A stretch of DNA of 46,775 bases, taken from the IMG/VR virus record IMGVR_UViG_2721755725_000017. One strand, given 5' to 3'. This document shows, in pieces, positions 27,001 to 30,000 of the stretch. Origin of the DNA: a virus. Its lineage: Duplodnaviria > Heunggongvirae > Uroviricota > Caudoviricetes. The number at the start of each line of letters is the position of its first letter. The stretch's first letter is position 1. A program made the position numbers.

Positions 27001-30000
27001 TTCCACCATTTCAGGAGGGTGTTCAAATATCACCGGCAGAAAGTGCGGATCATGAATTTTGCCGTCACGGACATCCCGGGCGTACTGCAGTTTCTGTCTG
27101 AACACCCCGGCAGGCGGTTCATTCGACTGGGTGGTTGTGTACACCACAAATCCTTCCGGACGGGAGGCAAGCCCGCCGATGGCTTCACGTAGCATGTCTT
27201 CCGCTTTGTACTGCTTGCCAAACAGCCACAGTTCATCAATCAGTGTCCCCACGGACTTGATACCGGACACCGTATTCGGATCGGCTGCCACCACCTTCAG
27301 GGTGGTGTCTGTCACCCTGTGGGTGATGGTCCGGATATGGGTCTGTACCTGGCAGAGGTCATCCAGATCATCGTCACGTCGTACCATATCCCGGGCAGGG
27401 TTGAAGGCGTTGGCCGCCACCTCCACAGTCGGGGCCAGAATCGTGTAACCCGCCGCCTGCCGCCAGTTCAGTAACAGCGCCGTCATCATGATCCCCGCGG
27501 CCAGCGTGGACTTCGAGTTTTTCTTGGGGATAAGGATAAACACTTCCTTGATATGGCGTACACCGGTCTGCGCATCATAGGAGCCAAACAGGGCCGCCAC
27601 CAGGTCAAACACCCACGCTGCACAGGACTCCCCGAATGTCGGGCTACCAGGTGCATCCACAATCCGCAGTTGTTTAAAAATCGCCAGGGCATGTGCGGCC
27701 TCGTCCGGATAAATCGGATCCGGAATAATCGACAGCCCCTTTTTCAGGCGCTCTGCCCAGTCCGGACATGCCGTGCTCCATACAGGTATCATCCGCTTTC
27801 CTCATTCTGGTTATTCACCACCAGTCGGGGAGGTGGTGGCACCGCAAAACGGTTAGCCGCTTTTTTCGCGGCATCACCTTTTGCCGATTTTTTACCGGCA
27901 TCGCCTTTTTTATGGTGTGTGAACTGCGCCAGTCGCCAGGCCGCATCCAGTGCCAGTTTCGGGTCAATTATCAGGTTTTCCACCAGGATCTGCCCCATAG
28001 CTTTCACCGGATCGGGAAGACCATCCTCCATATATTCAATACCATGAGATATCACCGCGGGCGGAGGCATCTCCGGATTGTTTTCGTCCGGCTGTGGTAT
28101 TGCAGCCACCTCACGGCGACGGGGTTTATCCTCCTGCTCTGATTTTTTCTGCCGGTAAACAGGAACCTCATCCACCTCCACCGTTTCGCACTGTTTACGG
28201 GCTATAAACGCGAGCACCTCCGGATCTTTTGCCAGCTGCGAGCCTTTAACCCTGGCGGTCTTCGCCGAATAACCGGCGGCAATGGCTGACGCTGTTTTGT
28301 TTTTCCCGGACATGAGCGCCAGCGCAAATTTTCGTTTTTGCGTTGTCAGCACAGCCTCCTCCCGGGTCCATAACGCACTCAGCCGGGTATGGTTCAGCCC
28401 ATTTTTCCCGGCGTCTCATGCCGCAAATGTTAACTGCTGCCTGGTTAACATTTGCTGAAAAAGCCAGTTAACATTTTTTTCGCACAACAAACTGAATAAT
28501 AAAGATAAAAACCGCAAAAATGCCCGGGCAGCCAGTTAACATGTTAACTGGCCTGAAACAGGAATTTTTTCTCTGCATGAGACGGGGGGCGGTGTCCGGG
28601 GCGATCGTTTTTTTCGCCGGATGATCCCCCCCCCCGGGGCGGGTCACAGTCCGATGATATCGTCTGCCCTGCCATGACCTCCGGCAGCGTCGGGTCCGGC
28701 ATACCACTCGCCGTTTCACTGACTGACTTCTGGCGATGGCATTCGGTACAGAGCGTCCAGAGATTCGTCTCCTCATTACCACCACCGAACTGAAGTGCAA
28801 TGCGGTGATCGAGTTCACTGTCACAAAGGTCAACCACACGCCCACAGAGACAGCACTGTCCGGCATCCCTCAGCCAGATACGACGCTTGAGGGAAACCCG
28901 GGCACTGCCACTGACCCGACGCTGTTCACCCTTCAGGACATTCACCCGCCGGGTATTCAGAGTTTTGATTCTGCCCGGTAACGTACGAAGCACGGCCATG
29001 TAAAATCCTCGCCATATAGCTTGTCACCAGAGGAAAGAAAATGTCACCGAAAAACCGGACCCGCAGAACAACAACCCGCAACATCCGATTTCCAAACCAG
29101 ATGATTGAACAAATTAACATCGCTCTTGACCAGAACACGACCAGAGCACCTGTTCAGACAGGTTTACTTAAACGACTTATATATGACACAAAAAGCGACC
29201 ACTAAAGTCGCTTTTTCTTATGGTAACAGGCAATAACTCTCTCAGATATTTTTTAGCATTTTTTTGACCGCGCGTTTCCGGACGTATTCTGTTCTCCTGT
29301 CCCTTTATATCGTCGGAATACCCGCCGCTCTTCAAATCCCATTCCCAACTCAGAATGTAGTCTGTTGACCGCTTGTTTTATTTCGGTCAGGTTCACCGGT
29401 GAAACCGGAGTCCGGCGCGCCTTACGCAAACACTCTGCTCGTTTCTGTGCCGCCACTTTTCTTTTCTGGTCATCACTTAGCTGTACCATCACTTTTGCCC
29501 ATCGTTCAGCTGCTCTCCGGTACAGTCCTTTTTTCTCCAGACATTCTGCCACGTGATCATGTAGCATAAGTGACCTCCGATTATCTACAGACTGCCATCC
29601 TGAATTTACCTTCCCTTAATGAAATAACAATAAAAAACAAACCACGCAAAAACAATAAAACAACACACAAAAAAAACTAAATAATAAACAAAAATAATCA
29701 CCTTATTTTATTATTTTTTGAGGGGGCAATTACTGAACAAAAAACGCTGACTATATACTCAAAACCAAACAACTATTCTGCCAATCAGGTATCATGGCAA
29801 CATACGGAATTACCGTGTTTTTGCCTTCTCTGCCCATACAATACGGGCATATACTTCATACTCTATTGTAATATTTCTATCCATACGCCCCACTCCATTT
29901 ACCTGTAAATAATATTCAAAATATTTATCACAGAAATCGTTTTTGGCCATGAACTGAGCACACTATAAAGTCCGGAACTGACTCTTTGTTAAATTACCTT

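What the first reader, a model, noticed from the sequence alone, without database searches (positions are those of the whole stretch)
28353..28660. Candidate cos region: GTTAAC repeat array and a C10G4 homopolymer inside the HNH gene 3' end
Between the terminase small-subunit start and the HNH gene lie five GTTAAC-centred sites, including a perfect 22-bp palindrome, arranged like terminase binding sites. About 80 bp further a C10G4 tract (28626-28639) followed by GGGCGGGTCAC lies within the HNH 3' end, loosely resembling the GC-rich lambda cosN. The homopolymer is also a slippage or sequencing-error hotspot, so the long HNH C-terminal tail may be an artefact.
Basis: inference. Interest (0 to 1): 0.5.

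Follow-up and report, generated by a model that had tools for sequence, protein, structure and literature searches.

The report
HK97-type cos site of Stx-family prophage
This is the DNA-packaging (cos) site of a common E. coli prophage: the repeated GTTAAC motifs are probably where the small terminase binds, but the genome is cut about 35 bp away from the C/G tract, which is a separate signal conserved across HK97-like phages.

Summary
Five of the window's eight GTTAAC sites fall within 120 bp (chance about 1e-8). The 22-bp palindrome is 28531-28552 and the C10G4 tract is 28626-28639.

The region is a cos site, but the cut is not at the tract. PhageTerm data for a 97.7%-identical phage, plus alignment to the record ends of HK97, HK022 and phiE125, place the 10-nt 3' overhang at 28582-28591 (CGCCCCCCGT on the gene strand).

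The tract is a G-run on the gene strand. Its length varies from 5 to 11, but it lies 27-29 nt before the cos core in 126 of 129 related loci. HK97, HK022 and phiE125 also carry a G-run 32 nt before their overhang. I read it as a cosQ-like flanking signal; this is inference.

The GTTAAC sites lie at +34 to +153 on the terS side. A satellite element that has no terminase genes next to its cos keeps all five within 1 bp. Other TerS lineages carry different GTTA-type repeats at +33/+34. This fits a cosB-like TerS-binding array.

The long HNH tail is real, not a homopolymer artefact. It comes from a 10-bp repeat deletion upstream, and RefSeq calls the gene a pseudogene.

The parts
28626..28639 (-). 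G-run element: G10 (28635..28626 on the gene strand) preceded by C4 (28639..28636). I read it as a conserved upstream flank of cos (cosQ-like); it is not the cut site.
   Evidence: A run of at least 5 G is present in 129 of 129 IMG/VR loci that share the 20-nt cos core. In 126 of them it ends 27-29 nt before GGACAC, even where all flanking sequence differs. HK97, HK022 and phiE125 have a G-run 32 nt before the overhang. It is absent from 12 chance matches to the core in unrelated genomes. Length is 5-11 among relatives. The C4 part is confined to groups A and B.
28592..28625 (-). 34-nt spacer between the G-run and the overhang. Its length is conserved and its sequence is not.
   Evidence: the satellite and other groups have unrelated sequence of the same length, within 1-2 nt.
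28582..28591 (-). Inferred cosN: the 10-nt 3' cohesive end CGCCCCCCGT (ACGGGGGGCG on the + strand). The top-strand nick is between 28582 and 28581 and the bottom-strand nick between 28592 and 28591, with about 1 nt uncertainty.
   Evidence: The Lys8385Vzw record starts at the window equivalent of 28581, and PhageTerm reports a 3' cos CGCCCCCCCT at the record end. HK97 ends ...GAC|CGCCGCCAAA and phiE125 ends ...GAC|CGCCCGCTTC in the same register. HK97 numbering was checked against PMC11331095.
28561..28581 (-). Conserved left-end block CTCATGCAGAGAAAAAATTCC (+1..+21), including the A6 tract 28565-28570.
   Evidence: It is conserved in all TerS groups and in the satellite. HK97 has an A/T tract at +24..+29 that its TerS needs for binding.
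28531..28552 (.). 22-bp perfect palindrome holding two inverted GTTAAC sites (28543-28548 = +34..+39; 28535-28540 = +42..+47). Proposed proximal TerS-binding pair.
   Evidence: I5. The same GTTAAC-NN-GTTAAC pair starts at +34 in some group-B loci. Groups C and D have paired GTTACAC or GTTAAAG repeats starting at +33/+34. The satellite keeps both sites at +34 and +42.
28473..28530 (.). A/T-rich spacer with T5 runs about 10 nt apart. Possibly an intrinsic bend between the two clusters of sites (inference).
   Evidence: Sequence. It is non-coding, because relatives carry 1- and 2-nt indels here. No IHF consensus with at most 1 mismatch was found.
28423..28477 (.). Distal trio of GTTAAC sites (28467-28472 = +110; 28444-28449 = +133; 28429-28434 = +148). 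The last two form a perfect 12-nt inverted repeat.
   Evidence: I3, I4. 88% of columns are invariant across 47 loci, against 63% in the next 70 bp. In the satellite the sites are at +110, +134 and +149. Against satellite L126, identity is 84% inside the sites and 65% outside.
27789..28352 (-). terS, 187 aa, with an N-terminal Terminase_2 domain (inferred to be a helix-turn-helix DNA-binding domain). Proposed reader of the GTTAAC sites.
   Evidence: Pfam PF03592, residues 2-57, E 1.3e-8. No detectable similarity to HK97 gp1. The N-terminal segment is alignable by eye across TerS groups A-D.
26131..27792 (-). terL, 553 aa, a homologue of HK97 gp2.
   Evidence: Pfam TerL_ATPase and TerL_nuclease. 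23% identity to HK97 gp2, E 9e-12.
28544..28999 (-). HNH endonuclease ORF of 151 aa. The HNH motif is intact but the C-terminus is frameshifted, so the ORF reads through the G-run and cosN and ends in the palindrome.
   Evidence: Pfam HNH, residues 49-92. The canonical protein in relatives ends ...PEVSGGHGRADDIIGL. RefSeq marks the identical locus in O111:H- 11128 as a pseudogene.
28677..28684 (-). Single copy of CCGGAGGT where most relatives have CCGGAGGTGTCCGGAGGT. This is the site of the 10-bp deletion that shifts the HNH frame.
   Evidence: In the alignment, 8 of 47 sequences (window included) lack the copy. They fall on at least two sequence backgrounds (the window type and L032).

Best explanation
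The interval is the cos (cohesive-end) packaging site of an HK97-type prophage of the Stx-phage / Pankowvirus group. All genes read on the minus strand.

Reading from HNH towards terS, the site has three modules:
2. cosN, where TerL with the HNH protein makes staggered nicks. These leave a 10-nt 3' overhang, CGCCCCCCGT (28591..28582). A conserved A-tract block follows at +1..+21.
3. A cosB-like array of five GTTAAC sites: an inverted pair at +34/+42, an A/T-rich spacer, and three more sites at +110, +133 and +148. The array ends about 75 bp before the terS start at +230.

Proposed mechanism (inferred):
- The N-terminal domain of TerS binds the GTTAAC sites. This marks the DNA and positions TerL and HNH on cosN for the initiating cut.
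- At the end of a packaging run the motor arrives from the HNH side. It passes the G-run and is stopped by TerS bound just beyond cosN.
- The G-run lies about three helical turns upstream of the bottom-strand nick. I propose it acts as a cosQ-like element that the translocating TerL/HNH/portal complex needs for correct cutting.

What is shown: the sequences, their conservation, and the cut position by homology plus PhageTerm data on a close relative. What is inferred: which protein binds which element, and the role of the G-run.

The HNH gene of this copy is a frameshift pseudogene or variant caused by a 10-bp repeat deletion.
For: Cut position:
- The Lys8385Vzw record (97.7% identical) is split exactly at window 28581/28582.
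- Its paper reports a PhageTerm 3' cos CGCCCCCCCT at the record end.
- The ends of HK97, HK022 and phiE125 align in the same register, GAC|CGCC...(10 nt).
- HK97 numbering was checked against PMC11331095.
- TerL is homologous to HK97 gp2.

G-run:
- It is present in 129 of 129 loci that share the cos core. In 126 it ends 27-29 nt before GGACAC, across at least five TerS groups and with unrelated flanks.
- It is present in all 11 Enterobacteriaceae genome hits and absent from all 12 chance hits.
- HK97 (G9), HK022 (G9) and phiE125 (G6) each have one 32 nt before the overhang.
- It is retained in satellite elements whose spacer sequence is otherwise unrelated.

GTTAAC array:
- Its clustering has a chance of about 1e-8.
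- The cores are invariant in 47 loci while the neighbouring DNA varies.
- The satellites L126 and E. coli 042 keep all five sites within 1 bp, with no terS or HNH beside their cos.
- Other TerS lineages carry other paired repeats at the same +33/+34 position: GTTACAC or GTTAAAG.
- TerS has an N-terminal Terminase_2 domain.
- No promoter, terminator or Rfam signal offers a competing explanation.
Against: - No virion-end data exist for this exact prophage.
- The only direct end mapping in the group is one PhageTerm run. Its published 10-mer differs from the deposited record by one C.
- No binding data exist for this TerS family.
- In group-B relatives the GTTAAC pair overlaps the ribosome-binding site and start codon of terS. 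Conservation there could reflect translation rather than binding.
- The five sites are not helically phased (spacings 8, 68, 23 and 15 bp).
- No IHF consensus lies in the spacer.
- The loci used to test the G-run were selected by a 20-nt cos-core pattern, so they are one related family and not independent origins.
- The HK97 papers I read (PMC9410871, PMC10359639, PMC11331095) assign no function to DNA upstream of the cut.
- The G-run length varies from 5 to 11, which is unusual for a strict protein recognition site.
Confidence: 0.75

Rival explanations
1. One reading: the C10G4 tract with GGGCGGGTCAC is the cosN-like nicking site, so the virion ends lie in or at the homopolymer.
For: The tract is G+C-rich and partly self-complementary (CCCCGGGG, I7). 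It lies at the HNH-terminase junction.
Against: The PhageTerm end of the close relative lies 34 nt away. HK97, HK022 and phiE125 have the same G-run but their record ends lie 32 nt downstream of it. The run varies from 5 to 11 nt, whereas the CGCC... 10-mer is nearly fixed in length in almost all loci.
Confidence: 0.03
2. The GTTAAC repeats are not terminase sites. They would instead bind another protein, such as a late-gene regulator, a host nucleoid protein or a replication initiator, or be leftovers of duplications of the ancestral terS start (ATG-TTA-AC) with no present function.
For: In group-B relatives GTTAAC is simply Met-Leu-Thr of terS plus its leader. The window's palindrome centre is an ATG followed by TTAAC, as expected for a vestigial start. 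One weak sigma-70-like match lies over two sites.
Against: A satellite that carries no terS or HNH beside its cos, and so probably depends on a helper phage for packaging, keeps all five sites within 1 bp while the DNA between them diverges. The motif changes with the TerS lineage at the same +33/+34 position. The promoter count is no higher than in shuffles. The Leu codon TTA is kept across group-B loci that differ at many other synonymous positions.
Confidence: 0.12
3. The G-run has no sequence-specific role. It would be a mutational hotspot or structural oddity that persists by descent, or it acts only through DNA mechanics (a rigid, A-form-prone poly(dG) segment that slows the motor) rather than as a protein recognition site.
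For: Its length is variable (5-11). An IS110-family element and a deletion junction sit in it in some prophages. No published function was found.
Against: It holds its position while the surrounding 30-60 nt turn over completely, in phages of Escherichia, Salmonella, other Enterobacteriaceae and Burkholderia, and in a satellite. A run of at least 5 G is always kept. The DNA-mechanics variant is compatible with conservation and overlaps my preferred cosQ-like reading.
Confidence: 0.2
4. The long HNH C-terminal tail is a sequencing or assembly artefact of the homopolymer.
For: Homopolymers of 10 are error-prone, and the point where the tail ends does depend on run length.
Against: The frame is already shifted about 40 nt upstream of the run by a 10-bp repeat deletion. 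The same 301 bp, G10 included, is 100% identical in at least 10 complete genomes. The deletion recurs on at least two sequence backgrounds.
Confidence: 0.02

Closest known systems
HK97 cos site (10-nt 3' overhang, cut by TerL gp2 with HNH gp74, TerS gp1 site at +15..+29)
   Same: The gene order is HNH, cos, terS, terL. TerL is homologous (E 9e-12). The cut-site register is the same, GAC|CGCC...(10 nt). A G-run lies 32-34 nt upstream of the overhang. An A/T tract and the putative TerS site lie just downstream of the cut.
   Different: TerS belongs to a different family (Terminase_2; no similarity to gp1). The proposed TerS sites are five GTTAAC repeats spread over +34..+153, rather than one 15-bp site at +15..+29. 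terS starts at +230 rather than +50. HNH shows no significant pairwise similarity to gp74 beyond the shared HNH family.
Lambda cos (cosQ - cosN - cosB with R3, I1, R2, R1)
   Same: The layout is tripartite. A short element lies upstream of the cut. Several repeated small-terminase sites lie between the cut and the small-terminase gene. A proximal site group and a distal site group are separated by an A/T-rich segment.
   Different: The overhang is 3' and 10 nt, not 5' and 12 nt. An HNH partner nuclease is present. No IHF consensus was found. The terminase proteins are not lambda-like. The cosQ analogy for the G-run is untested.
Stx1 phage Lys8385Vzw cos, reported by PhageTerm (PMC7946995)
   Same: The region is 97.7% identical. 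The same 10-nt site differs by one base (CGCCCCCCCT against CGCCCCCCGT). The GTTAAC array is the same.
   Different: That phage has the intact HNH gene (two repeat copies, stop before the run) and a G7 run instead of G10. In the passages retrieved, the paper reports only the overhang, not the flanking elements.
Burkholderia phage phiE125 cos (10-base 3' extension; my recollection of the original report, consistent with the record end)
   Same: A G6 run, then 32 nt, then GAC|CGCCCGCTTC at the record end, with an HNH gene just upstream.
   Different: The host and phage lineage are distant, and I did not examine the left end.

Membership tests
HK97-type cos packaging module | An HNH endonuclease gene immediately upstream of terS-terL, with cos between HNH and terS | tested here: met
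   The HNH ORF 28999..28544 has a Pfam HNH domain, and terS and terL follow on the same strand.
HK97-type cos packaging module | A large terminase homologous to HK97 gp2 | tested here: met
   BLASTP gives 23% identity over 461 residues, E 9e-12. Pfam finds TerL_ATPase and TerL_nuclease.
HK97-type cos packaging module | A cut-site sequence alignable with experimentally defined ends | tested here: met
   GAC|CGCC... aligns in the same register with the ends of HK97, HK022 and phiE125, and the G-run lies 32-34 nt upstream.
HK97-type cos packaging module | A 10-nt 3' single-stranded extension on virion DNA | not testable with these tools
   It is reported only for the relative Lys8385Vzw, by PhageTerm. 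No reads or virion DNA are available for this prophage.
HK97-type cos packaging module | A small terminase of the HK97 gp1 family | tested here: not met
   There is no similarity to gp1. The protein matches Pfam Terminase_2 instead. This means the recognition module has been swapped; the cutting module is the same type.
Lambda-type cosB | Multiple repeated small-terminase binding elements between cosN and the small-terminase gene | tested here: inconclusive
   Five conserved GTTAAC sites are in the right place, with comparative support, but no binding has been shown.
Lambda-type cosB | An IHF site between the repeat elements | tested here: not met
   WATCAANNNNTTR has no match with at most 1 mismatch in 28460-28540.
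Lambda-type cos | A 12-nt 5' overhang cut by a gpA-type terminase alone | tested here: not met
   The inferred overhang is 3' and 10 nt, an HNH partner is present, and TerL is of the HK97 type.
cosQ-like termination element | A short conserved element at a fixed distance upstream of cosN that is required for termination | tested here: inconclusive
   Fixed position and conservation are shown. The requirement for termination cannot be tested here.

The most novel reading that the evidence does not exclude
The G-run 32-35 nt upstream of the overhang is a general, so far undescribed recognition or pausing element of HK97-type packaging machines, functionally equivalent to lambda cosQ. Phages of Escherichia, Salmonella and Burkholderia share it. 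Satellite elements copy it, together with the helper's TerS-site array, and could thereby use the packaging machinery of Stx-family phages.
Probability: 0.4. Interest if true: 0.55.

Novelty: new member of a known kind. Interest (0 to 1): 0.35.

Why it matters
This phage group carries Shiga-toxin genes. Its cos region is present in 1243 of 5426 complete E. coli genomes, often in several copies. Knowing the real cos anatomy tells us which prophages and satellites can still be packaged and spread.

The conserved G-run is also present in HK97 itself. An in vitro packaging and cleavage system exists for HK97, so a cosQ-like role could be tested directly there.

The finding also corrects an annotation question. 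The long HNH ORF is a frameshift variant, not a longer protein.

Tried and rejected
- A genome-contig search with the TerS protein alone found no relatives.
- A distant blastn of the cos core against phage records found no other record that ends at this site apart from Lys8385Vzw.
- The papers on phi330 and on seven other Stx phages contain no cos mapping.
- The original HNH-packaging paper is not in the searchable library.
- Rfam gave only a sub-threshold MicX match outside the region.
- The terminator scan found nothing, and the promoter scan found one match, no more than in shuffles.
- TerS against solved structures gave only weak N-terminal matches to small-terminase DNA-binding domains (E 0.2-0.85). 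That is too weak to use.
- The IHF consensus search in the spacer found nothing.
- I considered that the ATG at the palindrome centre starts a small hydrophobic peptide. I rejected this because relatives carry 1- and 2-nt indels in that stretch.
- I considered the G-run with its downstream A-run as a terminator. I rejected this because there is no T-run on the transcribed strand and no terminator hit.
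Full report
**Observation**

- GTTAAC occurs eight times in the window, the number expected by chance. Five copies lie between 28429 and 28548.
- Five of eight within 120 bp has a probability of about 1e-8.
- Sites 28535 and 28543 form a perfect 22-bp palindrome, 28531-28552. Sites 28429 and 28444 form a perfect 12-nt inverted repeat.
- C10 is 28626-28635 and G4 is 28636-28639.
- The genes are on the minus strand: an HNH ORF (28999..28544; Pfam HNH), terS (28352..27789; Pfam Terminase_2, N-terminal 56 residues) and terL (27792..26131).

**What the element is**

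The region is 95-98% identical to many Stx1/Stx2 phages, including 1717, BP-4795, YYZ-2008 and phi330 of the genus Pankowvirus. It occurs in 1243 of 5426 complete E. coli genomes.

The exact window sequence, G10 included, is 100% identical in at least ten complete genomes. One is O111:H- strain 11128.

**Where the DNA is cut**

One relative, Lys8385Vzw (97.7% identical), has a record that begins at the window equivalent of 28581 and ends just before it. Its paper states that PhageTerm classed it as a cos phage with 3' cohesive ends. It gives the cos sequence CGCCCCCCCT at the end of the record (PMC7946995). The window has CGCCCCCCGT at that place, 28591..28582 on the gene strand.

This agrees with HK97. 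The numbering in PMC11331095 (T16, C:G at 21, A-tract at 24-29) fits the first bases of the HK97 record. The 10-nt 3' overhang is therefore the last ten bases of that record, CGCCGCCAAA.
- HK97 and HK022 end ...GAC|CGCCGCCAAA.
- phiE125 ends ...GAC|CGCCCGCTTC.
- The window reads ...CAC|CGCCCCCCGT in the same register.

TerL is a homologue of HK97 gp2 (23% identity, E 9e-12). The uncertainty is about one base, because the published 10-mer and the deposited record differ by one C.

**The C10G4 tract**

On the gene strand the tract is C4 followed by a G10 run.

I searched IMG/VR for the 20-nt cos core GGACACCGCNCCCCNTCTCA, which does not include the run.
- All 129 usable loci have a run of at least five G. 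In 126 of them it ends 27-29 nt before the core.
- This holds across at least five TerS groups. It holds where the upstream and spacer sequences are unrelated, and where no HNH gene lies upstream.

The same pattern scanned over one genome per bacterial species gave 24 hits.
- The 11 Enterobacteriaceae hits all have the run, the A-tract and at least one GTTAAC.
- 12 chance hits, in Actinobacteria and others, have none of these. They serve as a negative control.
- One Nitrosospira hit has a G6 run at a shorter distance.

HK97 (G9), HK022 (G9) and phiE125 (G6) each carry the run 32 nt before the overhang.

The run length varies from 5 to 11 among relatives. It varies even on otherwise identical backgrounds: G8, G9 and G10. 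The C4 part is confined to the E. coli and Salmonella groups.

The tract is therefore a conserved flank of cos, not the cut site. Its position is about three helical turns upstream of the bottom-strand nick, on the side from which the packaging motor arrives. This resembles lambda cosQ. That functional reading is inference, and I found no description of it in the HK97 papers I read.

**The GTTAAC array**

Counting from the top-strand nick (+1 = 28581), the sites start at +34, +42, +110, +133 and +148. terS starts at +230.

In 47 close relatives the distal trio is 88% invariant and every core is unchanged. The next 70 bp are 63% invariant. The palindrome was the search pattern, so its invariance says nothing.

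Other TerS lineages with the same cos core differ in a telling way.
- Group B (Salmonella FSL SP-016 and many Enterobacteriaceae; TerS 47% identical) has terS starting at +40. A single GTTAAC, or a GTTAAC-GT-GTTAAC pair starting at +34, overlaps the start codon.
- Groups C and D have direct repeats AAAAGTTACAC or AAAAGTTAAAG starting at +33/+34.
- Their TerS N-terminal segments are alignable by eye but differ.

The strongest evidence comes from a satellite element.
- L126 encodes an integrase, an Ash-family protein, a D5-type primase, SSB and a capsid protein. No terS or HNH gene lies beside its cos.
- Its counterpart in E. coli 042 is a roughly 9.5-kb island between cspD and clpS.
- The satellite carries a G8-G9 run, the cos core, the A-tract and all five GTTAAC sites at +34, +42, +110, +134 and +149. 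The spacer between the run and the core is entirely different.
- In the alignment with L126, identity inside the sites is 84% against 65% outside.

An element that probably depends on a helper phage for packaging has kept exactly these features. This supports the reading of a cosB-like TerS-binding array with a proximal pair and a distal trio. No IHF consensus is present in the A/T-rich spacer. No promoter, terminator or known RNA competes for the interval.

**The HNH tail**

Most relatives read ...CCGGAGGTGTCCGGAGGTCATGGC...GGACTGTGA. Their stop codon is 4 nt before the tract.

The window and seven other sequences among the 47 aligned have only one copy of the 10-bp repeat. This shifts the frame, bypasses the stop and lets the ORF run through the G-run and cosN into the palindrome. 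The deletion is found on at least two sequence backgrounds. The length of the run then merely decides where the aberrant tail ends.

RefSeq annotates the identical locus as an HNH pseudogene missing its C-terminus. The HNH motif itself is intact. Whether the variant works is unknown. O111 genomes hold 2-5 copies of this region, so an intact copy could supply HNH in trans (inference).

**Comparison and verdict**

In kind this is an HK97-type cos site: HNH plus an HK97-like TerL, a 10-nt 3' overhang and a shared cut-site register. It is joined to a different TerS family with its own multi-site recognition array, so its layout resembles lambda's cosQ-cosN-cosB. The overhang of a near-identical phage is already published.

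As far as I could find, two points are new.
- The five-site array and its copy in a satellite.
- The family-wide G-run, which HK97 also carries.

Interest is moderate to low. It is an ordinary feature with one testable new detail.

Noticed in passing
window 28677-28684 and 28544-28646: The HNH gene of this prophage is a frameshift variant. One copy of a 10-bp direct repeat is missing, so the ORF overruns its normal stop (28644-28646). The deletion recurs on at least two sequence backgrounds among relatives, and RefSeq calls the identical locus a pseudogene.
   Followed up: yes
L126 1-11730 (cos at about 10689-10910); L188 2917-12345 (E. coli 042, between cspD and clpS): This is a roughly 9.5-kb satellite-like island with an integrase, Icd-like or Ash protein, primase/helicase, SSB and a capsid or protease-capsid gene. 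It ends in a copy of this cos site (G-run, core, five GTTAAC) with no terminase or HNH gene beside it. The satellite-type cos is present with at least 80% coverage in 36 of 5426 complete E. coli genomes. It may be packaged by Stx-family phages.
   Followed up: partly
L159 1146-2604 (PPompW prophage, LC567822.1); L156: An IS110-family element, ISEc20, sits inside the G-run of cos in PPompW prophages, which have also lost the lysis genes and HNH. L156 shows the same deletion junction (…CTTTCGGGGGATCATCC…) without the IS. The G-run therefore looks like a rearrangement or insertion hotspot.
   Followed up: partly
L059 1490-1510; L060, L083, L128 (group-B loci): In related phages terS starts only 40 nt after the cut. 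The GTTAAC (or GTTAAC-GT-GTTAAC) element is its own Met-Leu-Thr start. The window's palindrome, centred on an ATG, looks like a vestige of that start. This suggests the window type arose by insertion of about 190 bp carrying three more sites.
   Followed up: partly
L003 end / L002 start (MT225100.1) versus PMC7946995: The published cos 10-mer CGCCCCCCCT has seven C after the G, but the deposited record has six. The paper's coordinates (50,977-50,953) are also inconsistent with the record length.
   Followed up: no
window 29041-29205 (+): A small DUF3950 / YlcI-YnfO-type ORF just upstream of HNH shares a 59-bp stretch (about 90% identical) with lambda and many lambdoid phages. In several of those records the match lies within a few hundred bases of the record end. 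It is probably a mosaic junction.
   Followed up: no
window 30033-31200 and 31649-33499 (-): Upstream lie a lysis cassette (holin-like 68 aa, lysozyme 165 aa, Rz-like 159 aa with an embedded 61-aa lipoprotein-like ORF) and a 616-aa ORF. By gene order, the 616-aa ORF may correspond to the esterase (NanS-type) gene reported in Stx phages. These calls rest on my reading of the translations; I ran no domain search on them.
   Followed up: no
L180 (Nitrosospira sp. Nl5), around 1885-1904: This looks like a genuine cos of the same core type (CTCACGCAGACAAAATTTCCC), but its G6 run lies only about 10 nt before the core. It is an exception to the fixed spacing.
   Followed up: no
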